In this document: in pieces, positions 1,515 to 17,347 of the stretch | Numbering within the stretch: position 1 is the first letter of the stretch | Layout of the letters: every line of letters begins with the position of its first letter | Source of the DNA: Pseudoalteromonas tetraodonis | GTDB lineage: Bacteria; Pseudomonadota; Gammaproteobacteria; Enterobacterales; Alteromonadaceae | Length of the DNA: 32,000 bases | Direction: 5' to 3' | NCBI RefSeq assembly: GCF_002310835.1 | Contig: NZ_CP011042.1 | Location: 270,001 to 302,000 of the forward strand | Position numbers and translations under genes: made by a program | Notes under the pieces: generated by a model | Database searches by the model: none | What the model was told of the DNA's origin: nothing | What the model saw: the letters and a program-made list of their open reading frames with translations, nothing else

Positions 1515-1994
1515 ATGCAAGCAAATACATATTTAAAATACGGTTCAATCAAAGGCGAAACTACTGCTGAGTCTTTCAAAGATTTAATTACAGTTTTATC
1601 TTTAGATTGGAACGTTAGCCGTGAAATTAGCGCAGCGACTGGTACGGCGATGGATCGTGAATCTAGCTCTACTCGTTTAGGCGATGTGACTATTACTAAA
1701 CTTCAAGATAAAGCATCTCCGGATCTTTTCAAAGAAGCAACTATTGGTAAAGGTCTACCTGCTGTTTTCCATATCACTAAACAAGGTGATAAAGTTGAAG
1801 AAATCATGAAAATCGAACTTACAGATGCCATGATCTCTAGCTACTCAGTATCAGTTCAAAACGACCGTCCAATTGAAACAATCACTATCAGCTACACTGA
1901 AATGATGATGACTGTTACACCTACTGACGACCAAAACAACATCACTGCACCACTTGTATATGGTTACAGCGGTGTTAAAGGTCAACAAATGTAA
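1515..1994 (+). CDS. hcp: Hcp (TssD) T6SS inner tube protein
   Basis: The ATG at 1515 is preceded by AGGAG at 1501-1505. The 159-aa product has an Hcp-like N-terminus (YLKYGSIKGETT...VLSLDWNVS). It sits between clpV and vgrG. The upstream start at 1488 in the ORF track has no RBS. Confidence 0.85.
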   Translation: MQANTYLKYGSIKGETTAESFKDLITVLSLDWNVSREISAATGTAMDRESSSTRLGDVTITKLQDKASPDLFKEATIGKGLPAVFHITKQGDKVEEIMKIELTDAMISSYSVSVQNDRPIETITISYTEMMMTVTPTDDQNNITAPLVYGYSGVKGQQM

Positions 1995-2012
1995 TATTTG
2001 TTACCCGATTGT

Positions 2013-2041
2013 AGCTCTGGGCTTTGCCCAGGGCTTTTTTT
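2013..2041 (+). terminator. Rho-independent terminator/attenuator after hcp
   Basis: A 10-bp stem pairs agctctgggc (2013-2022) with gcccagggct (2026-2035), with one G-U pair and a 3-nt loop. A T6 run follows at 2036-2041. Confidence 0.75.
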
Positions 2042-2067
2042 GATCTTCAGGATGGGAAAAGCAAGGA

Positions 2068-3921
2068 ATGCAAAAAGCAACACAAGATAAAAACGTAATT
2101 CAAATTAGTACTCCTGTTGGTAAAGATGCCCTTTATTTAACACGCTTCGTTGCTCAAGAAGCCATGTCAGATTTGTTTGTTATGTCGGTCAATATGTATA
2201 CCATAGGCCAACAAATTGCACATGAAGATCTGGTTGGCAAGCCTGTTTCTATCAAGGTAAAAAATGCCGAGGGTGGGGGAGAGCGTTTTTATCACGGTAT
2301 CGTGAGTCAGCTTGTTTCTAACGGAAGCCGTACGGCGGATGTTGATGAGCAAAAAAATTACATTGATTATCAAGCTACCATTGTGCCTTTTGCCGCTTCT
2401 ATGCGTAATCGTAAAAACAGTCGCATTTTCCAAAAGAAAACAATTAAAGATATATTCGCTGATTTGTTTGGCCAACACAATGTGGCTTTTTCAGATAAAA
2501 CCAGTAAAACCTACCCCAAATACGAATACTGTGTGCAATACCAAGAGTCAGATTTTGACTTTATCCAACGCTTATTACAAAGTGAGGGGATTTTTTACTT
2601 CTTTGAGCATACAAAAAGTAATCATACATTAGTTTTAGCAGATGATATTACCGCATATGAAATGTGTGGTGAGGCTAAAGTTGTTCATTCAACTGGCCAT
2701 TTAAGTGAGTCTCATGTTTCGCGTTGGCAGGGCGGATTAAGCTTAGCGCCAGGTAGTTTCAAACGTTTGGGCTACGATTTTAAACAGCCATCACGTTACC
2801 CTGATGCAGAGCAAGCAAACGCAGAATTACCGACCCAATCGGTATCAGAAATTTTTGAATATACAGCTGAAGCAGAGTGTCATCCCCGCGCGGCTAATTT
2901 GGCATCAGTTCAACTAGAGTCACTGCAAAGAGACATGAAGCTCTCGAGCGGGCGCAGTGACTGCCGCTCATTCTCTGTTGGTAAACTGTTTAGTTTCAAA
3001 AAACATGAAGACCCACGCCTTGAAGGTAAAACCTTTGCTATCACCTCGATGATGACGTCGATTGTGGTACCAAACCAATCAGGCGCTGCACAAGCATCGA
3101 GTGAAGAAGTGTATTCTAACCACTTTGAATGTGTGCCAAAAGACATTCCATACAGAGCGCAAGTGAGCAAAAAGAAACCGGTTATCAACGGCGTACAAAC
3201 AGCCATAGTAACGGGTGATAGCGCCGATGAAATTATGATTGACCAATATGGCCGCGTTAAGGTGCAATTTGATTGGGATCGTGAAGGTAAAAAAGACTCT
3301 AAAAGTTCATGCTGGATCCGAGTTGCACAAAATTGGGCTGGCAAAAAGTGGGGCGCCTTTTTCTTTCCCCGCGTAGGTCAAGAAGTTCTGGTTGATTTTA
3401 TTAATGGCGACCCAGATCAACCTATTATAAGCGGTGCTGTTTATAATGCAGACCTAATGCCTCCGTACGCATTACCTGGTGAAAAAACGCAAAGTGGTAT
3501 TAAGACTCGCTCAACTAAAGAAGGTGGAGCAGATAACTTTAATGAGCTGCGCTTTGAGGATAAAAAAGGCAGCGAGCTTGTGTATATGCAAGCCGAAAAA
3601 GATAAACAGCTTTACGTTAAAAACGATCAAAACGAAAAAATAGATAACGACCGTAATGTTGAAATCCTCAATAACGATAATCTCAAAGTCACAGCTAACC
3701 GTGTTGCTGAAATGGGTGAAAATGACACCTTAAAAGTCGGTAAAACACTTAATATTGAAGCGGGTGACGAAATAGTGATAAAAACAGGCTCTGCGCAAAT
3801 TAAAATGAGCAGTAGTGGCAATATTACTATTGAAGGTACAAACATTGATATTAAAGGCAGTAATGTAAAAGTAGATGGCAGTGCCATTACCTTATCTGCT
3901 GGTGTAATTAAGTTAAATTAA
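2068..3921 (+). CDS. vgrG: VgrG (TssI) spike protein, no C-terminal effector extension
   Basis: 617 aa. It carries the hallmark gp5-OB motif PRVGQEVLVDFINGDPDQPIISGAVYNA, followed by a beta-helix-like repetitive tail (NVEILNNDNLKV...GSNVKVDGSAITL). An RBS (aagga) precedes the ATG. Confidence 0.92.
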   Translation: MQKATQDKNVIQISTPVGKDALYLTRFVAQEAMSDLFVMSVNMYTIGQQIAHEDLVGKPVSIKVKNAEGGGERFYHGIVSQLVSNGSRTADVDEQKNYIDYQATIVPFAASMRNRKNSRIFQKKTIKDIFADLFGQHNVAFSDKTSKTYPKYEYCVQYQESDFDFIQRLLQSEGIFYFFEHTKSNHTLVLADDITAYEMCGEAKVVHSTGHLSESHVSRWQGGLSLAPGSFKRLGYDFKQPSRYPDAEQANAELPTQSVSEIFEYTAEAECHPRAANLASVQLESLQRDMKLSSGRSDCRSFSVGKLFSFKKHEDPRLEGKTFAITSMMTSIVVPNQSGAAQASSEEVYSNHFECVPKDIPYRAQVSKKKPVINGVQTAIVTGDSADEIMIDQYGRVKVQFDWDREGKKDSKSSCWIRVAQNWAGKKWGAFFFPRVGQEVLVDFINGDPDQPIISGAVYNADLMPPYALPGEKTQSGIKTRSTKEGGADNFNELRFEDKKGSELVYMQAEKDKQLYVKNDQNEKIDNDRNVEILNNDNLKVTANRVAEMGENDTLKVGKTLNIEAGDEIVIKTGSAQIKMSSSGNITIEGTNIDIKGSNVKVDGSAITLSAGVIKLN

Positions 3922-4280
3922 TGATGGAAATAGTCAATAACTTTCAATCAGGATTTAGAAACGGCATTGCAAATAACGGGCACGTTGTTTACTGCCGTTA
4001 TGGTTTACCGCATTTAGTGTGTTTACCGATAAACAGGCCAGACGATCCATTACTAAGCCCGGCTTTAAGTCATTTAAAAGCCATGAATGGCTATTATGCA
4101 CAGCAGTTTTTTATTCATTTAAGTGATGCACTTAATAGTGAAAATGTAATTTCAAACTTATATCAATATGCAACTCAAAGCGCTGTGGCACTTTCTGATC
4201 ACAGTAAAGATGAGTTAATTGAAGAAATTTCGCTACTGGTAACCAGTAACAAGCTATTAGTTATCCCGCTTTATGAATAG
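3921..4280 (+). CDS. Hypothetical 119-aa protein translationally coupled to vgrG (candidate spike-associated adaptor)
   Basis: Its ATG overlaps the vgrG stop (TAATG at 3919-3923). I recognise no motif. It is not PAAR-like. Confidence 0.6.
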   Translation: MMEIVNNFQSGFRNGIANNGHVVYCRYGLPHLVCLPINRPDDPLLSPALSHLKAMNGYYAQQFFIHLSDALNSENVISNLYQYATQSAVALSDHSKDELIEEISLLVTSNKLLVIPLYE

Positions 4281-4318
4281 CATTTCATAAACCAACAAAG
4301 ACACGACAAGGAGTCAAA

Positions 4319-4609
4319 ATGGGTAAACCCGCTGCTACAATTGGTCATATGCATGTATGCCCTAAAGTGACCGCTAAAGTTCCACATGTGGGTGGACCTA
4401 TAGTTGCTGGCTCTGGCAATGTGTTAATAGGTGGCATGCCCGCTGCCCGCAAAGGCGATATGATAGTGTGTGTTGGCCCGCCAGACAGCGTAAAAACAGG
4501 CTCGGGTAGTGTTCAAATTAATGGTAAACCTGCCGCCAGAATGGGCGATGATAGTGGCCACGGCGGAAAAATCGTTGTGGGCAACCCAACCGTGTTAATT
4601 GGTGGTTAA
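4319..4609 (+). CDS. Stand-alone PAAR-domain spike-tip protein
   Basis: 96 aa with two literal PAAR motifs (GGMPAARKGD, NGKPAARMGD) and a Gly-rich beta pattern. A strong RBS (aaggag, 4308-4313) precedes it. Confidence 0.92.
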   Translation: MGKPAATIGHMHVCPKVTAKVPHVGGPIVAGSGNVLIGGMPAARKGDMIVCVGPPDSVKTGSGSVQINGKPAARMGDDSGHGGKIVVGNPTVLIGG

Positions 4610-4611
4610 CT

Positions 4612-5637
4612 TTGCTAGCGACCTATTTAAGTGATCATCAAGCACAATTACTACAAATTAGTAACGCTCAACTGTGCCCGTTTACGTGTGTAGGTCATGT
4701 TCGCTATTTAAGAAAAACGCTATTAGAAAGCTGTTGGTTAACGGCAAAAAACAATAATCAAAAAAATAACTTTGAATTGCCCACCACTGAGCAACTAGTC
4801 GAAATAATAACTAACACCAAAAACGATGAATTAGTTGCCCAAGCATGTATTGAAGTTATGGCTAACTTGCCACAAAATAAAAATATTATATTTATAAATG
4901 AATTACTTAATGAGCCAGCGCTGAGTGCTTTTTTTAAAATCATTATAAATAAAGTCGTTATCCAACAGCATAGCTTTAACTTAATTCGGCTACTAAATTT
5001 AAACACCTTGTTTTTTGCTTACAGTGCTGAGGAAGAGATTGCCCCGCAAACACTGGTCACTATAAATCAAATTACCAGCCTTGCGCAGCACCACGATAGA
5101 CAGATATTAACGGCTATTTTTGATGCATTAAGTGAGCAAGCCCATCTATCACCCTTAATGTCGTTATTTTTGTTGTCGTTAAATTTTGAGCAAGTAAACA
5201 GCTTAAGTAATCATGCCAGTAATACCTTATCGGTTGATCACACATTGCATATTTTATTACAAAGCGGTTTTGTAAAACTAATTGTTTTGGCTAATTCTTT
5301 ATTACAACAGGTAGAGCAACCCGCGTTAATTATTGCGCTAATAAGACGCATGTTAGGTGATAAACTCGATCAGCTAGTGGAGTACGATATCCAGCGACTC
5401 GCTTGGCAAGGTGATGAAAGCGCGCTAATAGATTTTCAGCAGCAGTTAAAACATAACTGGCCTAAATATGAAACCGCCATGTCGAGTTTACGACTGATTG
5501 CAGGGCACCCTCTTGATGAAGTGCCTAATGCCATTTATTTATCGGCCATGGATAGCTATAGCCAAGGGGTGTTTAATTTATATCGCTATTATCAACATCT
5601 CGCTGCCAATAAAACTCAGGACGAGGTGGCACCATGA
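4612..5637 (+). CDS. Hypothetical 341-aa Leu/Asn/Gln-rich (probably all-helical) protein; candidate effector chaperone/adaptor
   Basis: A TTG start lies 2 nt after the PAAR stop, with GGTGG 7 nt upstream. The next in-frame Met is about 80 codons downstream. I see no DUF4123-, EagR- or DUF2169-type motif. Confidence 0.6.
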   Translation: MLATYLSDHQAQLLQISNAQLCPFTCVGHVRYLRKTLLESCWLTAKNNNQKNNFELPTTEQLVEIITNTKNDELVAQACIEVMANLPQNKNIIFINELLNEPALSAFFKIIINKVVIQQHSFNLIRLLNLNTLFFAYSAEEEIAPQTLVTINQITSLAQHHDRQILTAIFDALSEQAHLSPLMSLFLLSLNFEQVNSLSNHASNTLSVDHTLHILLQSGFVKLIVLANSLLQQVEQPALIIALIRRMLGDKLDQLVEYDIQRLAWQGDESALIDFQQQLKHNWPKYETAMSSLRLIAGHPLDEVPNAIYLSAMDSYSQGVFNLYRYYQHLAANKTQDEVAP

Positions 5638-6479
5638 GTGCATTTTCAATCGAGATGACATGCTTTTCTGTCCCAAATATTAGCAGCGTAGACACATTAT
5701 TATTTGACGATAACAGTGCTGTTTTTAATGAGTTGCAATGGCAGTCTTGGGATGCATGTGTTTACGATTGCATAATTAAATCTAAAGAATTAATGGCAGA
5801 AGTCACAGACAGCACATTGCCGATGATTTGGTTACTACCGGCATTATCATTTCAAGATGAGCTAAAACAGTTATTAGCTCAAAGCTTACAACAGTTATAC
5901 CCCGATCATAGCAACGAGCTGATTTTTCATGGAACAACAGGTGCACACTCTGCTATAGCTTTGGCTGGTGAAAAAAAATGGCAAAAATTTAATGTAATTG
6001 CTTTAGATGCAACTTTTAAAGCAAATAAACAGCAACAGTTTGTATATCAAGGTGTAGGTGGTGCGTTGGCTGTAGTTGAAATGGTGCCTTGCGGGTGGTC
6101 GCAGGTAAGCCATGAGATTGCAGCATCTATTGATTTTAGCAAACATAATCAGCTAGCAGGTATGCTTACGCGATTAGCTGAACAAACAGAGAATAAGATT
6201 GATCTAATTTTTGCACCGGGAAATGGGGTAGATGATGATAGTTGGCTAAACAATTTACAGCTACTTACTAGCTTAATTGATGAGCACACATATTACGAAC
6301 TACCCAATTATAAATTAGGGAAAATAGGCGCACTAGAAGGGTTAGTTAATTTGTACCAATTAACCACAAGCCCTGCAATTGTTGAGCATTTTAGTTATGC
6401 ATTAATGCTCTCCCAAGAGCAAGCTAAGCATCAAGGTGCAGCATCATACTTATGGATAAGTGAGGAAGTAGACAGCTAA
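5634..6479 (+). CDS. Hypothetical 281-aa protein; candidate effector chaperone/adaptor
   Basis: An ATGA start/stop overlap joins it to the upstream gene, and a TAATG overlap joins it to rhs downstream. No signal peptide and no recognised motif. Confidence 0.6.
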   Translation: MSAFSIEMTCFSVPNISSVDTLLFDDNSAVFNELQWQSWDACVYDCIIKSKELMAEVTDSTLPMIWLLPALSFQDELKQLLAQSLQQLYPDHSNELIFHGTTGAHSAIALAGEKKWQKFNVIALDATFKANKQQQFVYQGVGGALAVVEMVPCGWSQVSHEIAASIDFSKHNQLAGMLTRLAEQTENKIDLIFAPGNGVDDDSWLNNLQLLTSLIDEHTYYELPNYKLGKIGALEGLVNLYQLTTSPAIVEHFSYALMLSQEQAKHQGAASYLWISEEVDS

Positions 6480-9400
6480 TGCAAAGTAATACCGTTGTTT
6501 TACAAGGAATAAGTTACCCAATTTGCCTCGTCGCTGGTAAAGGTTCTGCGCCGTCGGGCTTTGTTGCTGTAGCAGCTAACACGCCTGAAAGTGCCAAAAA
6601 TCAAATTGCGCAAATAGGCAGTGCGCTTACTAGCGACGCCGCTAAACGTTTAGACGTTATTAACTTGCTTAACCTTGCAGGAGTGAGCTGTTCGCGCGGT
6701 GCGTCAGCCCGTGAAACCGCGAGTGTATTAACCCAAGCTTTGGTTGCAGATAAAATTAGTTGTTATCACCAAAAAGCTAAGTCGGCTATTCAAGTAAGCG
6801 ATAACACTAATAGCGGCGCAGCAGGTAAAAAGCCAAGTAGTAAGAGCAGTTCAACAGCCTCAGGTAAAAGTGCCTCTCAAGCGCCGGCTAAAAACAGTGG
6901 CGGTGCAAGTAATAATACCCCAAGTGAAGAACCTATCACCAAACAAGAGTGCCGCTCTGATCCAGTTTCTATGCTCTCGGGTGAAGAAATACTGCCGCTT
7001 ATTGATTTCACCTTAGCAGGTAGCAAACAATTAATTTGGCGACGCCTATACCGTTCATCGCATGCGGATGTATGCAGTGTAATGGGTAATGGTTGGCGAC
7101 ATGACTTTATGGTGCAGTTAACTGAGCATTACTTACCGCCACCTAAAGTAGGCCCAAAACAAAAAGGCACCTACTGGTTAGAATACCAAGATGAGCATGG
7201 CGCTAAACACCGCTTTGAAAAAGTAAAACCGGGGCAATCGAGCTATCAGCTAAGCAGTAATTTGGCGTTGCATTACCAAACTAATGGTAAGCAAGTATTG
7301 GTAACGCCAGATGATCAGCATCTTACGTTTAAAGCTGGCGAAAACTCATGGTTGCTCGAAAAAGTTATTAATGAAAAAGGCCAAAGTATTGGTTTTTATT
7401 ACGATGCGAAAGAGCGCTTGCATCGCGTTGAGGTTAATAAAGCACGCGGCTGTATTTTAAAATATAACCCGCAAGGGTTGCTGGCAAACATTTCGGCTTA
7501 TCGTACAGGTGATAACAACAAGCCAGTATTACTAACGCCGTTACTTGCGCAATATGATTATGATGAAAACAAAAATCTCGTTCGCGCGACCAATCAACAA
7601 GGTGAAACAGAGCATTATGGCTATAACGCCGCTAATTTATTAACTAAGCGTACCCGTGCCAGTGGTTTTAGCCATCACTTTGAATGGGATAGTTACTCAT
7701 CAAGTGCTAAGTGTATAAAACAATGGGGCGATAACAACACCTATACGTATCAGTTTGAATATAATTTAGACGCTGGTGAAACAACCTGTATAGACTCGCG
7801 TGGGCATAAAGAACACTTTGTACATAACGCGCAAGGTAAGTTAGTTAAGCACACCGATCCTAATGGTAATGTTTGGCACTACCGCTATAACGCACAAGGC
7901 CAAAAAATAACGGAAATAAAGCCAGACAGCAGTGAAATAAAATACAGTTATACCCCTTACGGTCAGTTAGAATCAATAACGCAGCCAGATGGCAGTGTCA
8001 CTAAATTTGCTTACAACCAATTGGGTCAGCGTGTATTAACCACCTTGCCTGATGGTCAAACAATAACCCGTAAATACAGTGTGGCGGGTTTGCTGCAAAG
8101 TGAAACCTTTGGCGACGGTCGCACCGTACTTTACAGCTATGACAAATTTGGCCAGCTAACCCAACACATAAATAAAGATGGTCAAGTCACTAAATTTGTA
8201 TGGAACGAGCAAGGCGAGCTTTTAGCCAAACACCATAACGATGAGCTCATTCGCTACAGCTACGACAGTTTAGGCCGTGTAAATGCCACCATTAATAACG
8301 CAGGTTTGCTGACTCAATATAAATACAATGAGCACGGCCAGCTTGCGCAAACTATTGCCTTTGACGAAAAAGACCCTGAAAATAAACAGCATCAACATTT
8401 TAGTTACGATGATGCAGGGCGGTTAATTAGCTCGCAAAACAGTAAGGGTGATACCACCGAGCAACACTTTGAAGGGCTAAGCCAGCCACATTGTGTTATT
8501 CAGCCCGATGGCAGTGCATTGCATTTAACTTACGATAAAGAGCGCAACCTAACCGCTATCGAACGTAGCGACGGCCATGTATACCGCATAAGTTATGACG
8601 CTAACGAAAACCCAACGCAAGTAACTGGATTTGATGGCACGCTACAGCAATATAAATACGATGCTTGCAACCGCTTAACCTCGGTTACACAAAGCGATAA
8701 ACGCCATGTAAAAATAGAGCGTGATAAATTAGGCCGCGTGATTGCGCAGCATGCCAGTTTGGCAACCGATACTCACATCGTTAATAACGCCAATTACTAC
8801 AGCTATAACCTGCAAGGTAAAATTACTCGTGCGCACAATGCACAATCAACCTTAAAGCAGCAGTTTGATAAAGGCGGGCGATTAGTACGTGCTGAGCAAG
8901 TACATAATCAGCAACAAGCCCATACCTTAAAATACAGTTACGACGACTACGGCAGAAGGCAATCACTGACCTTGCCAGATTCAAGCAAACTGAATTACAG
9001 TTATAATAAATTTGGTCAATTGAGTGGCATTCACTTACAGCAAGCCAATAGCACGGCTGTTGAACTTGCAGCGCTTAGCTATGACAGTCAAGGTAATATT
9101 CAAACGCAAAAGTTTGGTAATGACATAACCCTTACCCAACAATTTGATGTATTTAACCGCCTAACACAACAGCAGTTAACCCATCCTGCGCAAGCACTAT
9201 TTGATACCTGTACGTACATCTACGACAGCGTAAACCAGCTGATTGCGCGTAAAGAGGAAGGTGTTAGTAGTCATAATATTAATTTTGAGTACAACAGCCT
9301 AGGCCAGTTAATTCAACAAAATCTAGTAAGTTCTGAGAACACAAAAACCACGCAATACCAGTGGGATAGCTTTGGTAACCCAGTTAGCCAGTCAACGGTT

Positions 9401-11176
9401 AAAAATGACGAATTAGCTGAGCAGCAAACTCCTCAGCACAATGATGATAGCGACGCCAGCAATAAGGTTGAAAGTAACCAGTCAGAAAGCACACCTAATG
9501 TAATTAATAGCGAATATAACGATTCAAATGCAGCAACGTTTGCTAGTGATTTAAGTGATAATGATGATGTTATTACAGGTACCACTGATGCCGACCGGTT
9601 AACTCACTTTGGCGACAGCGACTTTCATTATGATGAATTTGGTAACCAAATACGCGAAACCGGCAAAGGTATAAAAACCCGCCGCGAATACAATGCATTT
9701 AATCAGCTAAGTTGCTTTAACAACAACGGTACGCTTACTCAATACGATTACGACCCACTCGGGCGTCGTATCGCCAAACACACCGAGCAGGGCAAAATTG
9801 ACTACATTTGGGATAACGACCAGCTAATTGGCGAATACCAACAGGGTGAATATACCTGGTATATCAACCTGCCAAATCAATTTCACCCAGTCGCGCTGAT
9901 TAAAAAAGGTGAGGTGTACTACTACCACCTAGACCAACTGAATACTCCACGTTTTGTAACCAACAACAAAACAGAAGTAGTCTGGGAAAACCAAGCAGAT
10001 GTATATGGTTATGAAGAGTCAGAGGCAAACACTACAAATAGCTTCACTCAGCCAATACGTTTTCAAGGGCAATATTTAGATATCGAGAGTGGCTTACATT
10101 ACAACCGCTACCGCTACTACAGCCCCAAACAACAACGCTTTATAAACCAAGATCCGATTGGCCTTGTGGGTGGCATAAACCACTATCAATATGCGCCGAA
10201 TCCAGTTAATTGGGTGGACCCGTTTGGGTTGAGTTGTAAGGAAGGAGATGCTAAAAGGGTTGTTTTTGCTGGCCATGGGATTATAGATGAGACTAAATCT
10301 GCAATAGTCCCTGTGGGAAGTACTCTAACGGTATATGCATTTAATGGAGCGACAATAACAGATGACCTTGGGCAATTAATAGAAAGTGGCGGGTCCTTAA
10401 ATAGTAATGTATATAAAAAGGTATATGTTGCTGGTGATGTTATCCCCGGGTATGTGTTACTTGATAACCCTGGAGATATCGAGCTTCTCGATAGTTCAGT
10501 TCAAGTTTCTAAACCAACAGATATATCAGAACTTCTAGCCGAAAATGTAGGGGATTGCCATTGGGCTGCATGTGCTTCAATCTTTGGGCATGAAAACGAG
10601 AATGTGATTCACCATACTGAGGGCATTTTCAAAAAAGAATCAAATAAATTTTATCAGCTACAAGATGACGATAGTTGGAGTGAGTTGCTTGAAGATAATG
10701 CTAGTGAAGATACTCGAAGTATAACTAAGCCATATGGCATAGAACAGTCAGCTTTGGAAAAAGCTTTAATTAATGATATCAATCCTGACAAGGTAATTAA
10801 CGGTCGAAAAATAATTAACTCGGATCTAGCAGGTACTATTGTTAAAACTAAAGGCGGGGATGTTGCGTTCGATACCGATGGTTTCCCTGATTTTACTCCA
10901 TACTCACAAAAAACAGTCTCCGTAGAGGGCTTGACTGGGGATATGCTAAATGATGTACCCTTAGCAATGGAAAAAGCTGGTATTGAAGTATACGATAAAA
11001 CTAAATATGTTTGGCATCATCACCAAGATGCTAAAACAATGATGCTCATTCCTAAATCTGTGCACTCTGTTAGAAATGGAGGTGTTGCACATACTGGAGG
11101 CAGGGCAGTGATAAAACATAACAAAGATAATCCTAATAACGTATTGAATTATAAGTCTCCAAAAGAGCTTGTATAA
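6479..11176 (+). CDS. rhs: Rhs-family T6SS polymorphic toxin (1565 aa) without an N-terminal PAAR
   Basis: The Rhs plug region is CRSDPVSMLSGEEILPLIDFTL...WRRLYRS. Dozens of YD repeats follow (YSYDSLGRV, YKYNEHGQL, FSYDDAGRL, YKYDACNRL and others). The Rhs-associated core ends ...YNRYRYYSPKQQRFINQDPIGL...PNPVNWVDPFGL (DPFGL = nt 10217-10231). Confidence 0.95.
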   Translation: MQSNTVVLQGISYPICLVAGKGSAPSGFVAVAANTPESAKNQIAQIGSALTSDAAKRLDVINLLNLAGVSCSRGASARETASVLTQALVADKISCYHQKAKSAIQVSDNTNSGAAGKKPSSKSSSTASGKSASQAPAKNSGGASNNTPSEEPITKQECRSDPVSMLSGEEILPLIDFTLAGSKQLIWRRLYRSSHADVCSVMGNGWRHDFMVQLTEHYLPPPKVGPKQKGTYWLEYQDEHGAKHRFEKVKPGQSSYQLSSNLALHYQTNGKQVLVTPDDQHLTFKAGENSWLLEKVINEKGQSIGFYYDAKERLHRVEVNKARGCILKYNPQGLLANISAYRTGDNNKPVLLTPLLAQYDYDENKNLVRATNQQGETEHYGYNAANLLTKRTRASGFSHHFEWDSYSSSAKCIKQWGDNNTYTYQFEYNLDAGETTCIDSRGHKEHFVHNAQGKLVKHTDPNGNVWHYRYNAQGQKITEIKPDSSEIKYSYTPYGQLESITQPDGSVTKFAYNQLGQRVLTTLPDGQTITRKYSVAGLLQSETFGDGRTVLYSYDKFGQLTQHINKDGQVTKFVWNEQGELLAKHHNDELIRYSYDSLGRVNATINNAGLLTQYKYNEHGQLAQTIAFDEKDPENKQHQHFSYDDAGRLISSQNSKGDTTEQHFEGLSQPHCVIQPDGSALHLTYDKERNLTAIERSDGHVYRISYDANENPTQVTGFDGTLQQYKYDACNRLTSVTQSDKRHVKIERDKLGRVIAQHASLATDTHIVNNANYYSYNLQGKITRAHNAQSTLKQQFDKGGRLVRAEQVHNQQQAHTLKYSYDDYGRRQSLTLPDSSKLNYSYNKFGQLSGIHLQQANSTAVELAALSYDSQGNIQTQKFGNDITLTQQFDVFNRLTQQQLTHPAQALFDTCTYIYDSVNQLIARKEEGVSSHNINFEYNSLGQLIQQNLVSSENTKTTQYQWDSFGNPVSQSTVKNDELAEQQTPQHNDDSDASNKVESNQSESTPNVINSEYNDSNAATFASDLSDNDDVITGTTDADRLTHFGDSDFHYDEFGNQIRETGKGIKTRREYNAFNQLSCFNNNGTLTQYDYDPLGRRIAKHTEQGKIDYIWDNDQLIGEYQQGEYTWYINLPNQFHPVALIKKGEVYYYHLDQLNTPRFVTNNKTEVVWENQADVYGYEESEANTTNSFTQPIRFQGQYLDIESGLHYNRYRYYSPKQQRFINQDPIGLVGGINHYQYAPNPVNWVDPFGLSCKEGDAKRVVFAGHGIIDETKSAIVPVGSTLTVYAFNGATITDDLGQLIESGGSLNSNVYKKVYVAGDVIPGYVLLDNPGDIELLDSSVQVSKPTDISELLAENVGDCHWAACASIFGHENENVIHHTEGIFKKESNKFYQLQDDDSWSELLEDNASEDTRSITKPYGIEQSALEKALINDINPDKVINGRKIINSDLAGTIVKTKGGDVAFDTDGFPDFTPYSQKTVSVEGLTGDMLNDVPLAMEKAGIEVYDKTKYVWHHHQDAKTMMLIPKSVHSVRNGGVAHTGGRAVIKHNKDNPNNVLNYKSPKELV
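10232..11173 (+). other. Rhs C-terminal variable toxin region (~314 aa): unknown N-proximal module plus C-terminal WHH-type HNH/EndoVII nuclease
   Basis: It starts immediately after the DPxGL demarcation. The C-terminal part reads DGFPDFTPY...KYVWHHHQDAKTMMLIPKSVHSV..GVAHTGG, with WHH at nt 11012-11020. This fits the WHH clade of HNH-fold polymorphic toxins as I remember it. G+C and codon choice drop relative to the core. Confidence 0.65.
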
Positions 11177-11994: not shown

Positions 11995-12004
11995 TTTGTT
12001 CATT

Positions 12005-12307
12005 ATGGCATGTATAAATATCAAAAATTTAACACTTCAAGACGTCGCTTCATTTACGCTAAAAAATAACCCCAGCAAGCAATTTAAAGAAAAATGGGGT
12101 GACGAGTATTTTAGCCGCGCAATGTCATTATGGCGTGGAGTAAAGGAATGTTATTCAAAAAGTAAAGAATGTAACTTCACTACACAAGAGCTTTTATTTG
12201 CAATGAACTATGAATATGCAGTTGCTCCTTACAGCTCTGAGAATAATAACGCTATTGAATTTTATAGATGGTGTTTTGAAAATTTAAATAAAATCAAGGA
12301 TAGATAA
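12005..12307 (+). CDS. Hypothetical small protein, translationally coupled to the downstream ChaN-like gene
   Basis: Start is the ATG at 12005 (or the TTG at 11996). Its stop overlaps the next start (TAATG at 12305-12309). No recognised motif. Confidence 0.45.
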   Translation: MACINIKNLTLQDVASFTLKNNPSKQFKEKWGDEYFSRAMSLWRGVKECYSKSKECNFTTQELLFAMNYEYAVAPYSSENNNAIEFYRWCFENLNKIKDR

Positions 12308-13080
12308 TGAATAAAATAAACACGGATGTAAATTACAGAACAATGGCCGGTAATGCGCGTTTAGTTATGTTAGGCGAATCGAGCCATAGTGCTGCTGGCT
12401 ATAAATATGAGGCTATAAAAGCGATTAGGCAGTTAAAGGCTGCGGGTTTTACACATTTTGCTATAGAAATGCTGCCTAGCTCGATGCAGGAAAAAATTGA
12501 ACTGTATCAACGAACAGGTAAAGGCTTTAACATAATACAGCAATATTTTGATAAATATTGGACACATGGTGATTTTACTCCTCAAGCCTATGGTGAGCTG
12601 GTAAAGGCGGCACGCAATGCAGGAATGAAGATAGTTGCATTGGATGTTTCTGTAGAAACGATGGAAGTAATGGATAGTGTATGCCCATCGACAAAAGCCG
12701 TGACTGGAGAGTGTTTTGACGCGCATACGTTTAGAAACGATCTTTGGGCTTATAATTTAGCTACAATCCTCAAGAGAGCTAAGCAGAATAAAATTGTTGC
12801 TTTTATGAGTCGATGGCACGCAGTTAAGAATTTAAAGTATCAAATAGGTATTGATTCTTTAATTAAAGAGCACGGTATTCAAAATGTTCGTTTTATTGAT
12901 TTTATTGGTGGCTTATCTTGTTACAGCGACAGGCCGTGTAAGGGCATGTCTAGCCAACAAGAGACTTTGAAAGGACAATACTTCTACAAAGAGGGTTTTC
13001 CGTATGAAAGTACGGTTAAATCATTTCAAGTCCACCTACCAGAAAAGCGTATTAATAATGATGGGTCATTCCAATGGTAA
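12307..13080 (+). CDS. EreA/ChaN/Tiki-superfamily protein (ChaN-like), cytoplasmic form without signal peptide
   Basis: The superfamily motifs occur in the expected order: LVMLGESSH, GFTHFAIEM, YGELVKAARNAGMKIVALD, FRNDLWAYNL, KIVAFMSRWHA. The N-terminus is not hydrophobic. Confidence 0.65.
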   Translation: MNKINTDVNYRTMAGNARLVMLGESSHSAAGYKYEAIKAIRQLKAAGFTHFAIEMLPSSMQEKIELYQRTGKGFNIIQQYFDKYWTHGDFTPQAYGELVKAARNAGMKIVALDVSVETMEVMDSVCPSTKAVTGECFDAHTFRNDLWAYNLATILKRAKQNKIVAFMSRWHAVKNLKYQIGIDSLIKEHGIQNVRFIDFIGGLSCYSDRPCKGMSSQQETLKGQYFYKEGFPYESTVKSFQVHLPEKRINNDGSFQW

Positions 13081-13661
13081 AAGCACCAGTGACACTTGTG
13101 TTAGCAATTGGTTTTTTTATTTTTACGGATGCTAAAGCATCTATGTTTGCGAATATTGATATTAATGATCCGAACTTAACCGTTGAAATTGCAGCTAAGC
13201 AATGCGAAAAAAGCTATATGCACGCACCTAACAAATTAGAAGAATGGTGTGAAAAAGCTTACGAAATGGGTCACTTGGAGTCCTTGTATTATATTGGTAT
13301 GTATACTGGGAATGGGTCCCGTTATTTAAATGAATTAAATATTCGAATTGAACAAGGTGAAGCTAATGCTATTAATACATTAGCTTGGTTATACCAAAGC
13401 GGCCGTTTAGTTAAAAAAGATTTAAGTAAAGCTGCACGCTTATACCAGCTTTATTTAGCACAAGAAAATAACCAAGCAATTACACTTAAAACTTCTACAC
13501 ATTTTGAGTTAGCTACAATTTATAGAAAGCTGGGTATGTGGGATAAAGTAATAACTCATACTCAATATGTAATTGATAAGGCAAAAAGAGAAGGTCGTAG
13601 GGAACTTGCACAGAGATGGCGAGATGAGGCTGAAACATATTTGAAAGAAAGTAATTTGTGA
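13074..13661 (+). CDS. Secreted Sel1-like repeat (SLR/TPR) protein, paralog 1
   Basis: Signal peptide MVKAPVTLVLAIGFFIFTDAKA. Sel1 signature INTLAWLYQSGRLVKKDLSKAARLYQ. Its start overlaps the upstream stop (ATGGTAA). Confidence 0.75.
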   Translation: MVKAPVTLVLAIGFFIFTDAKASMFANIDINDPNLTVEIAAKQCEKSYMHAPNKLEEWCEKAYEMGHLESLYYIGMYTGNGSRYLNELNIRIEQGEANAINTLAWLYQSGRLVKKDLSKAARLYQLYLAQENNQAITLKTSTHFELATIYRKLGMWDKVITHTQYVIDKAKREGRRELAQRWRDEAETYLKESNL

Positions 13662-14275
13662 GTTTTTCACGCGTATATAGCTTTTCACTTGGCAGTCATG
13701 TGACAAAGTATTTATTAATTAGTGCACTGTTTACTTTTAGCTTAATTAGTAATGCCGCTGGCCCTCGATGGGATAATTCAATAGATATAAATGCTCCAGA
13801 TTTGACTGTATTAGCTGCCGCAGAGCAGTGCCATAAAAGTTTAATTAACGCGCCTGAGTATCTTGAAGAGTGGTGTGAAAAAGCTTATGGAATGGGATAC
13901 TGGAAGGCACTGGTTACACTAAGCCTCCATAATGGAGATGGAACTCGATTATTAGAGGAGGCCAAAAAGCGGGTTGCGGCAAAAGAGCCAAAAGCTTATT
14001 CAACTTTAGCTTGGTTATATGGCAGTGGTATGTTTGTGGAGCAAGATATTAATTATGCTATTGCCCTTTACAAAGAATTTTTAGCATTAGATGCAGAATT
14101 ACCAAATTCGTTAGTTGCGGCTGCGCACTTTAAGTTAGCAAACTTATATGAATCGCAGCAGGATTGGCTTGCAGTAAATGAGCATGCACAATATGTTATT
14201 GACCACAGTCCTTTAGCTTATGATAAAGAACGAGCTGTTGATTTGATAAAGTTAGCTAAAAAAATTTTTGATTAA
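13658..14275 (+). CDS. Secreted Sel1-like repeat protein, paralog 2
   Basis: The GTG at 13658 overlaps the upstream TGA. An alternative in-frame GTG at 13700 would give MTKYLLISALFTFSLISNAAG. Sel1 signature YSTLAWLYGSGMFVEQDINYAIALYK. It shares the block LEEWCEKAY.MG with paralog 1. Confidence 0.75.
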   Translation: MSFSRVYSFSLGSHVTKYLLISALFTFSLISNAAGPRWDNSIDINAPDLTVLAAAEQCHKSLINAPEYLEEWCEKAYGMGYWKALVTLSLHNGDGTRLLEEAKKRVAAKEPKAYSTLAWLYGSGMFVEQDINYAIALYKEFLALDAELPNSLVAAAHFKLANLYESQQDWLAVNEHAQYVIDHSPLAYDKERAVDLIKLAKKIFD

Positions 14276-14312
14276 GAATAAATCATTGAATAAAAACTGA
14301 TACAAAAAGGAG

Positions 14313-14347: not shown

Positions 14348-14614
14348 ATGGAACAACAAAACCAACATACACTAACCAACCTTGTATACGATATTTACGA
14401 GGATCCAACCAAAATTGAAGAGCATCAAGAGCTTATTCAACCATTATTGAGCGATTTAGTCGCAACTGCCCCTGCGGGTTTTGAAGGCATAGCGACGATG
14501 ATCAATACCCACATATCAAACGGGTTTAAGTTTAAAAACCCTAAAATACAAAAGTTTGAGCTTGAGTCGGGCTTATTAAAGCTTAAAACCTACTTTCAAA
14601 AAATAAACCTTTAA
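14348..14614 (+). CDS. Hypothetical 88-aa protein
   Basis: An ORF with coding-like composition. No motif recognised and the RBS is weak. Confidence 0.4.
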   Translation: MEQQNQHTLTNLVYDIYEDPTKIEEHQELIQPLLSDLVATAPAGFEGIATMINTHISNGFKFKNPKIQKFELESGLLKLKTYFQKINL

Positions 14615-15628: not shown

Positions 15629-16150
15629 TTGTATATTTTGTTATCGCGTTTTAAAGCTTACTTTTTGGTAGTTGTATCTATTACTATTATTTTTACTACA
15701 ACACAGGCTTGTGCAGATATGTTTGGTTTTTTTAATAAGCAGGATTTTGTTTTATCGGCTCCGATGAAGGGGCAGTTGTTAGATAAAGGGCAGCCTGTTG
15801 CAAATACTAAGGTTGTACGTGCGCTTACTTATGGTGATGAATATAAAGATGAAGCAATAACCGATGAAAATGGTTTTTTTACCTTCACAGAAAAATCTAT
15901 AAAAACGAGTAAGCCTGCAAACATGTTTGATAATGAATCACTGGTTCAGCATGTTTATTTAGAAAATGGTACGCCTGAGGGCGTTGTACTTTGGTACACA
16001 ACCGTGTCTATGCACGAAGGGAGTGATACCCTAAAAAACTTACTCGCTAACTTAGAGTGTGATATTGCCGAAGAGCCACAAACATACGACATACCTATAG
16101 AAGAAGCACCAGAGCATTTCTTTACGATATATGGTGCATGTAAAATGTAA
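15629..16150 (+). CDS. Small exported protein or lipoprotein (candidate lipase immunity protein)
   Basis: The hydrophobic N-terminus ends in a lipobox-like TTQAC. The motif TDENGFFTF suggests a transthyretin/carboxypeptidase-regulatory-like beta domain. It ends 30 nt upstream of the lipase gene. The start codon is uncertain (TTG at 15629 or 15638). Confidence 0.55.
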   Translation: MYILLSRFKAYFLVVVSITIIFTTTQACADMFGFFNKQDFVLSAPMKGQLLDKGQPVANTKVVRALTYGDEYKDEAITDENGFFTFTEKSIKTSKPANMFDNESLVQHVYLENGTPEGVVLWYTTVSMHEGSDTLKNLLANLECDIAEEPQTYDIPIEEAPEHFFTIYGACKM

Positions 16151-16180
16151 CTTTTAACATAATCATTTAAAGGGAATTTT

Positions 16181-17347
16181 ATGAATACTTTAACTCCTAC
16201 ACAAGCTGTACAAGTTGCTTTGCTTGCTTATAAAGCAAAGAGTATTAAAAGTACCACGTTACTTAATAATTCTTTGCATCCTTCTCTGCGAGGTAGCTTT
16301 AACTTTGGGGTTAGCCCTGAAGCAGTACAAGGAATATCTGGTGGTTTTTTCTCTCATTTATTTGGTTTAAGCACTGGTTTTGGTTTGCTAGGACATGGCC
16401 AAGGGCTGTATCAAGGTGATTCAGTAATCACTATTCGCGGCACGGCCTCTCTTAGAGATGGCCTAACAGATGCACACTTTGGGTTAAGCGGTGGCTCTAA
16501 TGGCAGTATGGTACATGCTGGGTTTAATAAAACCTTTTATAGCATGAAGCCCGCTTTACAAGAGTTTGTAGCGGCTAACATTCGAGACAAAATAACCGGC
16601 TGTGTGCACATTGTTGGTCACAGTTTAGGTGGTGCATTGGCTACGCTTTCAGCCGATTGGATAAAAGCAGAGTATTCGTTACCCGTTAAATTATATACAT
16701 TTGGCTCGCCAAGAGTAGGGCTTGATAACTTTTCGCGCGCTGCTACTTCTCGTATTGATAAAATATACCGCTGTACACACGGTGCTGATCCGGTTACAAA
16801 AGTGCCTTTGTGGCCATTTTCACATGCGCCCTACAATGGCCAAGAAATTCGTCTTGATAACGGTCAAGGTCTTAAAGGCGCAGCCCACAAGTTAAGTGGT
16901 ACGCCAGGCTATGTTAATACCGCAAACAGTAATGACTGGGGCAATTTAACTGTAAAAGCAAACCACTTCTTAAGCACACCGGTACGTTTAAAGTTTGAAG
17001 ACAGAAACCAAGCTTCATTTAGTTCACACTGGGCAGATAAACTGGGCGCTGCGTTAGTTACCTTATTAAAAGATTCGGGTTACTACAGTGCTGTTGCGGC
17101 ACAAGCAGCCATAGGTACAGGCTTAACTTTTTACGATATGCTCGCGCGAACGCTTGATAAAATAGCCAAAGCGTCAGCCTCATTTGCAACGCAAACCTTA
17201 GGTTTACTCGGCCACATGCTAGTGTTTGCTGGCAAAGTTATTAGTAAAGCCGTAGAGCTGACTTACAGTTTTATTAAATCAGTATTTGATTCAACTCTAG
17301 GGGCATTATATCGTGCTGCACGAGAAGGCTTAAATGGTCTAGATTAA
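16181..17347 (+). CDS. Class-3 (Lipase_3) lipase without signal peptide; candidate T6SS Tle-like phospholipase effector
   Basis: The Lipase_3 blocks occur in order: ITIRGTASLRDGLTD, MVHAGFNKTF, HIVGHSLGGALATLSA (GxSxG), LYTFGSPRVGL, THGADPVTKVP. The N-terminus is hydrophilic. About 100 aa of Ala/Leu-rich helical tail follow. Confidence 0.8.
   Translation: MNTLTPTQAVQVALLAYKAKSIKSTTLLNNSLHPSLRGSFNFGVSPEAVQGISGGFFSHLFGLSTGFGLLGHGQGLYQGDSVITIRGTASLRDGLTDAHFGLSGGSNGSMVHAGFNKTFYSMKPALQEFVAANIRDKITGCVHIVGHSLGGALATLSADWIKAEYSLPVKLYTFGSPRVGLDNFSRAATSRIDKIYRCTHGADPVTKVPLWPFSHAPYNGQEIRLDNGQGLKGAAHKLSGTPGYVNTANSNDWGNLTVKANHFLSTPVRLKFEDRNQASFSSHWADKLGAALVTLLKDSGYYSAVAAQAAIGTGLTFYDMLARTLDKIAKASASFATQTLGLLGHMLVFAGKVISKAVELTYSFIKSVFDSTLGALYRAAREGLNGLD

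What the first reader, a model, noticed from the sequence alone, without database searches (positions are those of the whole stretch)
12307..14275. EreA/ChaN/Tiki-fold enzyme coupled to two tandem secreted Sel1-repeat paralogs: candidate new T6SS effector/immunity module
Seen in sequence: a 257-aa protein with no signal peptide carries the ordered motif set of the EreA/ChaN/Tiki superfamily (LGESSH, FAIEM, ARNAGMKIVALD, FRNDLWAYNL, SRWHA). Overlapping stop/start codons link it to a 100-aa unknown upstream (TAATG at 12305-12309) and to two downstream signal-peptide Sel1-repeat paralogs (ATGGTAA at 13074-13080; GTGA at 13658-13661). The paralogs share the Cys-containing block LEEWCEKAY.MG, including a 17-nt identical DNA island (13245-13261 and 13871-13887). 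Established knowledge: periplasm-acting T6SS effectors are cytoplasmic proteins followed by exported immunity proteins, and tandem Sel1-repeat immunity paralogs are known for the Pseudomonas Tle5/PldB phospholipase. Members of this superfamily are esterases (EreA), metalloproteases (Tiki) or haem binders (ChaN). Inference: about 1 kb downstream of an Rhs effector, this arrangement fits an unrecognised effector class with duplicated periplasmic immunity. I know of no described T6SS effector with this fold. An alternative is that the enzyme is a detoxifying or immunity-type protein, or unrelated iron/haem cargo.
Basis: partly seen in the sequence, partly recalled or inferred. Interest (0 to 1): 0.8.

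Follow-up and report, generated by a model that had tools for sequence, protein, structure and literature searches.

The report
Candidate TIKI-fold T6SS toxin with Sel1 immunity
A small enzyme related to the toxins RRSP and HopBA1 sits in a Pseudoalteromonas type VI secretion island, always followed by an exported Sel1-repeat protein, and it evolves like a toxin/antidote cassette, so it is probably an undescribed family of antibacterial T6SS effector.

Summary
The ORFs, motifs, overlapping stop/start codons, N-terminal signal-like segments and the 17-nt identical island are all at the stated coordinates.

The 257-aa protein passes Pfam PF04187. Its model matches HopBA1, ChaN and EreC. A family profile hits the RRSP endopeptidase at E=8e-13. 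The TIKI residue set (E24, H27, E54, H171; R143 nearly so) is conserved across relatives down to about 21% identity.

In the 18 intact copies from about 20 genomes (five Alteromonadales genera plus one Photobacterium), the gene is always directly followed by a Sel1-like gene with a signal-like N-terminus. In the Alteromonadales it lies downstream of PAAR/Rhs, among other effector/immunity-type cassettes (muramidase, class-3 lipase).

Enzyme and Sel partner co-diverge (r=0.83). Three genomes carry a broken enzyme gene next to an intact Sel gene. Four loci have an extra Sel gene with no enzyme. No intact enzyme lacks a Sel gene.

Three corrections follow:
- The window's second Sel gene is an orphan from another cassette lineage, not a local duplicate.
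- Its start is probably 13700.
- The upstream 103-aa ORF is not a conserved partner.

Toxicity, T6SS dependence and substrate remain untested. I found no paper describing a T6SS effector of this fold.

The parts
12307..13080 (+). TIKI/ChaN-fold hydrolase of 257 aa (29 kDa, pI 9.1) with no signal-like N-terminus; the proposed toxin
   Evidence: PF04187 above threshold. AF2 pLDDT 80. Foldseek hits HopBA1, ChaN and EreC. Family profile hits RRSP at E=8e-13. E24, H27, E54 and H171 are invariant and R143 is nearly so. Four Cys are invariant among close homologues.
13074..13661 (+). SelA: Sel1-like repeat protein with a signal-like N-terminus (MVKAPVTLVLAIGFFIFTDAKA|S); the proposed cognate immunity; overlaps the enzyme's stop (ATGGTAA)
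   Evidence: The overlap is conserved in most loci. Profile hits PDB Sel1-repeat proteins at 1.5e-11. Co-diverges with the enzyme, r=0.83. Hydrophobic N-terminus.
13658..14275 (+). SelB: second Sel1-like protein; the proposed orphan immunity from another cassette lineage; real start probably the GTG at 13700 (191 aa)
   Evidence: Closest (73%) to the Sel gene that follows the clade-B enzyme in L016. DNA is 83-85% identical to L016 over 13850-14300, while the enzyme gene is only 51-72%. The start is inferred from the alignment.
11996..12307 (+). 103-aa ORF overlapping the enzyme's start (TAATG); a variable left flank, not a conserved partner
   Evidence: Present in only 5 loci. In most other loci a different 147-152 aa ORF (c8) lies upstream. 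No Pfam or NCBIfam hit.
14348..14614 (+). 88-aa conserved ORF that follows the cassette; the right-hand conserved flank, possibly a third cassette gene
   Evidence: Follows Sel in most loci and is duplicated together with the cassette in L008 and L013. It is 87-95% identical across Pseudoalteromonas even where the enzyme is only 50% identical. DNA identity jumps to 91-97% at about 14300.
1488..11176 (+). T6SS context: Hcp 1488-1994, VgrG 2068-3921, PAAR 4319-4609, two unknown ORFs, and Rhs with a WHH nuclease C-terminus 6479-11176
   Evidence: Pfam hits.
15629..17347 (+). Neighbouring cassette: DUF6795 protein with a hydrophobic N-terminus (15629-16150) plus a class-3 lipase (16181-17347), a Tle-type effector/immunity layout
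   Evidence: Pfam hits. N-terminus. Conserved in 14 loci.

Best explanation
The 257-aa protein is a cytoplasmically made hydrolase of the TIKI superfamily, with the 2His/2Glu plus Arg active-site set. It is exported as a cargo effector by the adjacent Hcp/VgrG/PAAR T6SS and acts in the periplasm of rival Gram-negative cells on an envelope substrate, through a peptide or ester bond that is not yet known.

SelA, translated from an overlapping start and carrying a signal-like N-terminus, is the cognate periplasmic immunity protein. It would bind and block the enzyme. SelB is an orphan immunity gene acquired from a different cassette lineage, and would protect against the clade-B enzyme made by other strains.

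Cassettes are exchanged by recombination between conserved flanks: the left flank or the enzyme's conserved 5' end, and the 88-aa ORF on the right.

Shown here: the fold, the conserved catalytic residue set, the contrast in N-terminal hydrophobicity, the synteny, the co-divergence, the orphan and decay patterns, and the mosaic structure. Inferred: toxicity, T6SS dependence, periplasmic site of action, neutralisation by binding, and the substrate.
For: Fold and chemistry:
- PF04187 scores 38.3 bits against a cut-off of 27.7.
- The AF2 model (pLDDT 80.3) matches HopBA1 at 2.7e-6, ChaN at 2.4e-5 and EreC at 9.6e-5.
- A profile of 30 diverse relatives hits RRSP at 7.9e-13 and HopBA1 at 1.1e-5. The RRSP alignment pairs GE.H, E, R and H with the family's E24/H27, E54, R143 and H171.
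- E24, H27, E54 and H171 are invariant and R143 is at least 90% conserved. They match the catalytic sets described for RRSP (PMC6254334) and EreC (PMC7979712).

Context:
- Hcp, VgrG, PAAR and Rhs lie upstream.
- The same island layout recurs in Pseudoalteromonas, Shewanella, Thalassotalea, Pseudocolwellia and Colwellia, with Rhs down to about 40% identity.
- Neighbouring cassettes pair a PF11860 muramidase with proteins that have hydrophobic N-termini, and DUF6795 with a class-3 lipase.

Toxin/immunity behaviour:
- All 18 intact enzymes are followed by a Sel gene.
- All 19 full-length enzymes lack a hydrophobic N-terminus and all 27 Sel proteins have one.
- Pairwise identities of enzyme and cognate Sel correlate at r=0.83, with 0 of 5000 Mantel permutations reaching that value. 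Sel diverges faster.
- Broken enzyme genes sit beside intact Sel genes in L008 (two copies), L015 and L020. Extra Sel genes without an enzyme occur in the window, L001, L014 and L019.
- Two divergent complete cassettes share one genome in L005 and L013.
- Identity shows sharp steps: 93-97% in the flanks against 57-62% inside the cassette.
- The two Cys pairs are conserved independently of each other. P0038 and P0045 keep only the first pair. This fits disulfides that form outside the cytoplasm.

Distant relatives at about 30-40% identity are also followed by true Sel1 proteins.
Against: There is no experimental evidence for toxicity, secretion or binding.

The T6SS linkage rests on one syntenic island type in Alteromonadales, so it amounts to few independent observations.

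The distant enzyme+Sel1 pairs lie outside any visible T6SS context. L017 sits between MFS/LysR and APH genes, and the others are on short contigs.

None of 128 remote relatives is fused to PAAR, Rhs, VgrG, MIX or another delivery domain. No recognised adaptor gene is adjacent.

The co-divergence of two adjacent genes can come from linkage alone.

The pseudogenes are in draft assemblies and could be sequencing errors.

Confidence: 0.7

Rival explanations
1. The enzyme and the Sel1 protein form a two-gene functional unit unrelated to the T6SS. It could be a toxin/immunity pair delivered by another route, or an envelope-maintenance pair. It would simply be a passenger in a recombination-prone island.
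For: Remote enzyme+Sel1 pairs lie in non-T6SS surroundings. No fusion to a T6SS delivery domain appears among 128 relatives. No known adaptor gene is nearby.
Against: In five Alteromonadales genera the pair always sits in the PAAR/Rhs island, among cassettes typical of T6SS effector/immunity pairs. T6SS effector/immunity pairs away from the main cluster are common (established knowledge). An enzyme with no signal-like N-terminus paired with a partner that has one needs some export route for the enzyme.
Confidence: 0.15
2. The enzyme is an anti-eukaryotic effector like its nearest solved relatives RRSP and HopBA1. The Sel1 proteins would be secreted host-interaction factors or helpers, not immunity proteins.
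For: The best PDB sequence matches are RRSP and HopBA1 and the best structural match is HopBA1. Sel1-repeat proteins are virulence factors in some pathogens (my own knowledge).
Against: The asymmetric decay pattern is what immunity genes show: intact Sel beside broken enzyme, extra Sel without an enzyme, and never an intact enzyme without Sel. RRSP needs a large N lobe for activity (PMC6254334), which is absent here. The hosts are free-living marine bacteria.
Confidence: 0.07
3. The enzyme is itself protective. It would be a cytoplasmic immunity-type or detoxifying hydrolase acting against an incoming toxin or small molecule.
For: It lies in an array that also holds orphan immunity-like ORFs after the Rhs gene. 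EreA-type relatives detoxify macrolides (PMC7979712).
Against: It does not track the variable Rhs C-terminal toxins. It is the gene that decays while its partner is kept. The strict coupling to a partner with a signal-like N-terminus, and the conserved Cys pairs, are unexplained by this reading.
Confidence: 0.05
4. It is a ChaN-type haem or iron uptake protein, as its database name ('ChaN family lipoprotein', 'iron-regulated protein') implies.
For: The Pfam family name and the source names. A TonB-dependent receptor gene lies at 19607-21610 on the other strand.
Against: There is no hydrophobic N-terminus and no lipobox cysteine. No transporter gene is adjacent. The receptor is 6.5 kb and eight genes away, and is absent from the Shewanella and Colwellia loci. 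The hydrolase residue set is intact. ChaN is a weaker match than RRSP or HopBA1.
Confidence: 0.03

Closest known systems
RRSP (Ras/Rap1-specific endopeptidase, MARTX effector domain; PDB 5W6L, 6A8J)
   Same: It is the best solved relative by sequence profile (E=7.9e-13). It has the same TIKI core and the same 2His/2Glu plus Arg set, and it is a metal-independent hydrolase toxin (PMC6254334).
   Different: RRSP is one domain of a giant T1SS-exported toxin. It acts in the eukaryotic cytosol on Ras/Rap1, needs an N-terminal membrane-localisation and substrate lobe, and has no immunity protein. The protein here is a stand-alone 257-aa protein paired with a partner that has a signal-like N-terminus.
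HopBA1 (Pseudomonas syringae type III effector; PDB 5T09)
   Same: It is the best structural match (E=2.7e-6, TM 0.54/0.62) and a profile match (1.1e-5). It is a similar-sized single-domain effector of the same fold.
   Different: It is delivered by the T3SS into plant cells and has no immunity gene. The window protein does not reach Pfam HopBA1 (PF22079) at E<=1.
ChaN (Campylobacter jejuni haem-binding lipoprotein; PDB 2G5G; Pfam PF04187)
   Same: The Pfam family is assigned above threshold and there is a fold match.
   Different: ChaN is an exported lipoprotein of an iron-uptake locus. Here there is no signal-like N-terminus or lipobox, no uptake genes, and an intact hydrolase residue set.
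Erythromycin esterases EreA/EreC and Bcr135/136
   Same: They share the core fold and the same E-x-x-H / E / R / H residues (PMC7979712).
   Different: Ere enzymes are about 400 aa and carry an extra helical minor lobe. They are cytoplasmic resistance enzymes and the sequence match is weak (0.016-0.086).
T6SS effectors with Sel1-like immunity: P. aeruginosa PldB/Tle5b with PA5086-5088, and K. pneumoniae VgrG4 with Sel1E
   Same: They have exported Sel1-like repeat immunity proteins, sometimes several in tandem, encoded next to a T6SS effector. This is from my own knowledge; PMC7108748 appeared but I did not read it.
   Different: Those effectors are a PLD phospholipase and a VgrG C-terminal domain, not TIKI-fold enzymes. 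Here the second Sel gene is an orphan from another lineage and not one of several immunities to a single toxin.

Membership tests
TIKI / EreA / ChaN superfamily | Alpha/beta fold with a parallel beta-sheet core shared by ChaN, Ere/Bcr135, HopBA1, PMT-C1 and RRSP | tested here: met
   PF04187 scores 38.3 bits against 27.7. Foldseek top six hits are HopBA1, ChaN, EreC and Bcr135/136. The profile hits RRSP, HopBA1, ChaN and EreC.
TIKI / EreA / ChaN superfamily | Catalytic 2His/2Glu motif plus a conserved basic residue, as found in the active members | tested here: met
   E24, H27, E54 and H171 are invariant and R143 is at least 90% conserved in 30 relatives of 21-75% identity. They align with the RRSP GE.H, E, R and H positions. 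Spatial clustering could not be measured because no coordinates were available.
ChaN haem-uptake lipoproteins | Lipoprotein signal peptide, i.e. an exported protein | tested here: not met
   The N-terminus MNKINTDVNYRTMAGNARL has no hydrophobic stretch. The maximum 12-residue hydropathy is 0.77-1.27 in 19 homologues, against 1.9-3.6 for the Sel proteins.
ChaN haem-uptake lipoproteins | Encoded next to a TonB-dependent receptor or other iron-uptake genes | tested here: not met
   The neighbours are Rhs, small ORFs, Sel1-like genes and a lipase cassette. The nearest receptor gene is 6.5 kb away on the other strand.
ChaN haem-uptake lipoproteins | Binds haem | not testable with these tools
   This needs purified protein.
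T6SS periplasm-acting effector/immunity pair | Encoded in or next to an hcp/vgrG/PAAR cluster | tested here: met
   Hcp, VgrG, PAAR and Rhs lie upstream. The same island recurs in five genera. Remote relatives are not in such a context.
T6SS periplasm-acting effector/immunity pair | Effector without a Sec signal, followed by an adjacent immunity gene with an export signal | tested here: met
   (hydrophobicity and visual inspection; no signal-peptide predictor was run). The 7-nt overlap ATGGTAA is conserved in most loci.
T6SS periplasm-acting effector/immunity pair | Polymorphism: co-diversifying pairs, orphan immunity genes, effector decay with immunity kept | tested here: met
   r=0.83, Mantel 0/5000. 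Orphan Sel genes occur in four loci, and three genomes have a broken enzyme with an intact Sel gene. Mosaic boundaries are visible.
T6SS periplasm-acting effector/immunity pair | Effector is toxic and is neutralised specifically by its immunity protein | not testable with these tools
   This needs expression assays.
T6SS periplasm-acting effector/immunity pair | T6SS-dependent export and killing | not testable with these tools
   This needs secretome and competition assays.
Sel1-like repeat (SLR) proteins | Repeated Sel1 motifs that pass the family threshold | tested here: inconclusive
   The window proteins on their own score 17.0 and 12.1 bits against 30.7. The 20-sequence family profile hits solved Sel1-repeat proteins at 1.5e-11 and HcpC at 1.3e-8. 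Partners of remote relatives pass clearly, at 6e-29 and 5e-56.

The most novel reading that the evidence does not exclude
This is the first TIKI-fold (RRSP/HopBA1-like) hydrolase used as an interbacterial, periplasm-acting T6SS toxin. It would have a new envelope substrate and Sel1-repeat immunity. It would belong to a wider, unrecognised class of 'TIKI enzyme + Sel1' toxin/immunity bicistrons spread beyond T6SS islands. Its substrate could also point to the still unknown biochemistry of HopBA1.
Probability: 0.5. Interest if true: 0.7.

Novelty: new variant of a known kind. Interest (0 to 1): 0.6.

Why it matters
T6SS effector/immunity pairs are a well-known kind of system, but I found no described effector built on the TIKI/ChaN/EreA fold. 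The databases name these proteins 'ChaN family lipoprotein', which this analysis suggests is misleading.

If it is confirmed, three things follow:
- A new enzymatic activity joins the antibacterial T6SS arsenal, and with it a possible new envelope target.
- An antibacterial branch is added to a fold known from Wnt-cleaving Tiki, Ras-cleaving RRSP and the plant-cell-death effector HopBA1.
- A wider set of enzyme+Sel1 bicistrons is flagged as candidate toxin/immunity modules.

The family is taxonomically narrow: about 31 clusters at 90% identity, mostly Alteromonadales. New T6SS effector families are reported regularly, so the surprise to a specialist would be moderate, not large.

Tried and rejected
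Readings rejected:
- Haem uptake (ChaN). The protein has no signal-like N-terminus, there are no uptake neighbours, and the hydrolase residues are intact.
- Macrolide esterase. The match to Ere is weak and the minor lobe is missing.
- The 103-aa upstream ORF as adaptor or partner. It is present in only 5 loci and is replaced by other ORFs elsewhere.
- The two Sel genes as a recent tandem duplication. They are 42% identical, and SelB is closer to the cognate Sel of another lineage.

Searches that found nothing:
- Fusions of the domain to T6SS delivery domains. Pfam on 128 remote relatives gave only PF04187, HopBA1, TraB, one LysM and a few others.
- NCBIfam gave no hit for the enzyme or for SelB.
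- Literature searches for Tiki, ChaN, erythromycin esterase or PF04187 together with T6SS found nothing relevant. Hits for 'Chan' were author names and hits for 'DUF399' were DUF3992 and DUF3996.

Things that could not be done or were uninformative:
- Model coordinates are not exposed, so distances between residues could not be measured.
- The promoter and terminator scans were uninformative.
- The repeat finder did not list the 17-nt island. A direct pattern search did.
Full report
**1. The observation**

The overlaps TAATG (12305-12309) and ATGGTAA (13074-13080) can be read. The 17-nt string TGGTGTGAAAAAGCTTA occurs exactly twice in the window, at 13245-13261 and 13871-13887, with none expected by chance. 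It encodes the conserved WCEKAY block. SelA and SelB are 42% identical, E=3e-43.

Upstream lie the C-terminus of ClpV, then Hcp, VgrG, PAAR, two unknown ORFs and a 1565-aa Rhs protein with a WHH nuclease C-terminus that ends at 11176. Downstream lie an 88-aa ORF, a 261-aa membrane protein, a DUF6795 protein and a class-3 lipase. After that come unrelated genes: MerR, FMN reductase, DsrE, a GDSL lipase, a TonB-dependent receptor, trehalase, a transposase and curli genes. GC content dips to 0.32-0.37 across 11-16 kb, against about 0.40-0.42 around it.

**2. What the 257-aa protein is**

Pfam assigns PF04187 (Cofac_haem_bdg, 'Tiki superfamily, ChaN') at E=1.9e-9 and 38.3 bits, above the 27.7-bit cut-off. 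An AlphaFold2 model built on 23 homologues has mean pLDDT 80.3 and pTM 0.77. Its best PDB matches are HopBA1 (5T09, E=2.7e-6), ChaN (2G5G), EreC (6XCS) and Bcr135/136. PMT (2EBH) is a weaker match.

A profile of 30 relatives of 21-75% identity hits RRSP, the Ras/Rap1-specific endopeptidase of MARTX toxins, at E=7.9e-13. It then hits HopBA1 (1.1e-5), ChaN (2.7e-3) and EreC (0.086). In that diverse alignment E24, H27, E35, E54 and H171 are invariant, and R143 and H243 are at least 90% conserved. In the RRSP alignment these fall on the GE.H, E, R and H positions. Those positions are the 2His/2Glu plus Arg set described as catalytic for RRSP (PMC6254334), and correspond to E47, H50, E78, R261 and H289 of EreC (PMC7979712). 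So the protein most likely is an active hydrolase. Its nearest characterised relatives are secreted toxins, not haem binders.

It has no hydrophobic N-terminus, so the database name 'ChaN family lipoprotein' does not fit this subfamily. Four cysteines (C126, C136, C205, C211) are invariant among close homologues. More distant relatives keep only the first pair. That fits two separate disulfides better than one four-Cys metal site, and it suggests the protein works outside the cytoplasm. This last step is inference.

**3. Comparative genomics**

The close family is small: 31 clusters, mostly Pseudoalteromonas, Shewanella, Colwellia, Pseudocolwellia and Thalassotalea. A scan of one genome per species gave about 20 true loci.

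*Context.* In the Alteromonadales loci the gene lies downstream of PAAR and Rhs, with Rhs identity to the window falling to about 40% in Shewanella and the Colwelliaceae. The space between Rhs and the conserved right flank is a shuffled array of cassettes. One common cassette pairs a PF11860 N-acetylmuramidase (E=1.2e-64), which has no signal-like N-terminus, with one or two small proteins that have hydrophobic N-termini. Another pairs DUF6795 with a class-3 lipase. These have the layout of periplasm-acting T6SS effector/immunity pairs, so the enzyme+Sel pair sits in an array of such cassettes.

*Pairing.* All 18 intact enzyme genes are followed at once by a Sel gene, usually with the same 7-nt overlap. 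All 19 full-length enzymes lack a hydrophobic N-terminus, and all 27 Sel proteins have one.

*Co-divergence.* Pairwise identities of enzyme and cognate Sel correlate at r=0.83, and none of 5000 Mantel permutations reached that value. Sel diverges faster: about 65% enzyme identity goes with about 36-42% Sel identity. Linkage alone could produce much of this correlation, so I treat it as showing that the pair moves and diverges as one unit, not as proof of binding.

*Asymmetric decay.* The enzyme gene is broken while the downstream Sel gene is intact in L008 (both copies), L015 and L020. An extra Sel gene with no enzyme occurs in the window, L001, L014 and L019. No intact enzyme lacks a Sel gene. 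This asymmetry is what a toxin/antidote pair is expected to show.

*Multiple cassettes and mosaicism.* L005 and L013 each carry two complete cassettes whose enzymes are about 55% identical, each with its own Sel type. At DNA level, the window against L004 is 93-97% identical in the flanks (12050-12350, and from 14300 on) but 57-62% inside the cassette. Against L016 only the SelB segment is 83-85% identical. The window is therefore a mosaic: an L004-like left flank, an L001/L002-like enzyme+SelA, an L016-like SelB, and an L004-like right flank.

**4.

- SelB is not a local duplicate of SelA. Its closest relative (73%) is the Sel that follows the clade-B enzyme of L016, which is only 50% identical to the window enzyme. 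SelB is best read as an orphan immunity gene against a non-self variant.
- Homologues align their first Met to the GTG at 13700. SelB therefore probably starts there (MTKYLLISALFTFSLISNAA|GPRW), and the GTGA overlap at 13658 is likely an ORF extension. Either start keeps a usable export signal.
- The 103-aa ORF occurs in 5 loci only. In most loci a different 147-152 aa ORF (c8) lies upstream. It is a variable neighbour, possibly an orphan Rhs immunity gene.
- The 88-aa ORF downstream is the consistent neighbour. It is 87-95% identical across Pseudoalteromonas and is duplicated along with the cassette in L008 and L013. Its role is unknown.

**5. The Sel proteins**

On their own, the window proteins score below the Pfam Sel1 threshold. 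A 20-sequence family profile hits solved Sel1-repeat proteins (6ORK at 1.5e-11, HcpC 1OUV at 1.3e-8, HcpB 1KLX). Two cysteines (QC..KS and WCEKA) are invariant, which recalls the disulfide-bridged Helicobacter cysteine-rich SLR proteins.

Remote relatives of the enzyme, at about 30-40% identity, are also followed by clear Sel1 proteins. These are Photobacterium L017 (6e-29), L034 (4.9e-56), L031 (1.3e-9) and L036. The pairing is therefore old. Those loci show no T6SS genes nearby, although most are on short contigs. Two other remote relatives have a different gene downstream, or none that is recognisable.

**6. Most likely mechanism**

The enzyme is made in the cytoplasm, exported as a cargo effector by the adjacent T6SS, and acts in the recipient's periplasm. 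There its disulfides could form, and it would hydrolyse a peptide or ester bond in an envelope component. The producer and its kin would be protected by periplasmic SelA, and SelB would widen protection to a foreign variant.

My confidence is about 0.8 for 'toxin/immunity cassette', about 0.7 for 'delivered by this T6SS', and lower for any particular substrate. One remote relative carries an N-terminal LysM domain, which is a faint hint towards peptidoglycan.

Points against are these:
- The T6SS link comes from one island type.
- No fusion to a delivery domain occurs among 128 remote relatives.
- No known adaptor gene is adjacent.
- Nothing has been tested experimentally.

**7. Comparison with what is known, and novelty**

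Toxins of this fold are known from other delivery systems: RRSP in MARTX toxins, HopBA1 in the T3SS, and the inactive C1/C2 region of PMT. Sel1-like immunity proteins are known for other T6SS effectors (PldB with PA5086-5088, VgrG4 with Sel1E; from my own knowledge). I found no paper that links the TIKI/ChaN/Ere fold or PF04187 to a T6SS or interbacterial effector. This is absence of evidence within the library that was searched.

I rate it a new variant of a known kind of system: a new effector family within the T6SS effector/immunity scheme. Interest is 0.6.

Noticed in passing
window 14348-14614: An 88-aa acidic cytoplasmic ORF with no family hit follows the enzyme+Sel cassette in most loci. 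It is 87-95% identical across Pseudoalteromonas whatever the cassette variant, and it is duplicated along with the cassette in L008 and L013. It may be a recombination anchor or an accessory factor.
   Followed up: partly
window 6479-11176 and 11187-11564: The Rhs protein has DUF6531, RHS repeats, an Stv domain (residues 1261-1366) and a WHH/colicin-DNase C-terminus. The 125-aa ORF right after it is unique to this window among the loci and is presumably its immunity gene.
   Followed up: partly
window 11617-12307: Two small ORFs (125 aa with a weak DUF7919 hit, and 103 aa) travel together in L004. They look like orphan immunity-type genes left between Rhs and the cassette. L004 also carries orphan Rhs fragments.
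   Followed up: partly
window 15629-17347; L002, L005, L013, L015: A DUF6795 protein with a hydrophobic N-terminus lies upstream of a class-3 lipase, which is a Tle-like pair with the immunity gene first. Several genomes carry a second, divergent copy (lipase about 45% identical) elsewhere in the same array.
   Followed up: partly
window 14675-15460: A 261-aa multi-pass membrane protein with no family hit is conserved in 15 loci after the 88-aa ORF. Its function is unknown.
   Followed up: no
L001 8197-9953; L005 7969-9289 and other loci: There are further cassettes that the window lacks. One is a PF11860 muramidase with a PG_binding-like N-terminus plus one or two small proteins with hydrophobic N-termini. 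Another is a 272-290 aa protein with a similar N-terminus plus a 145-149 aa protein with a hydrophobic N-terminus.
   Followed up: partly
window 3921-4280, 4612-5637, 5634-6479: Three ORFs between VgrG, PAAR and Rhs (119, 341 and 281 aa) have no Pfam hit but are conserved in related islands. They are candidate Rhs or PAAR accessory or chaperone proteins.
   Followed up: no
proteins P0112 and P0133 (remote relatives): P0112 (705 aa) carries the TIKI domain at its C-terminus, after a long region that looks kinase-like by eye. P0133 has an N-terminal LysM domain. Twelve remote relatives also match Pfam HopBA1.
   Followed up: partly
window 26929-28131: A Mutator-family (IS256-like) transposase lies between a LuxR-type regulator and a curli (CsgG/curlin) operon.
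   Followed up: no
window 11000-16000: GC content drops to 0.32-0.37 across the cassette array, against about 0.40-0.42 in the flanking T6SS and housekeeping genes.
   Followed up: no
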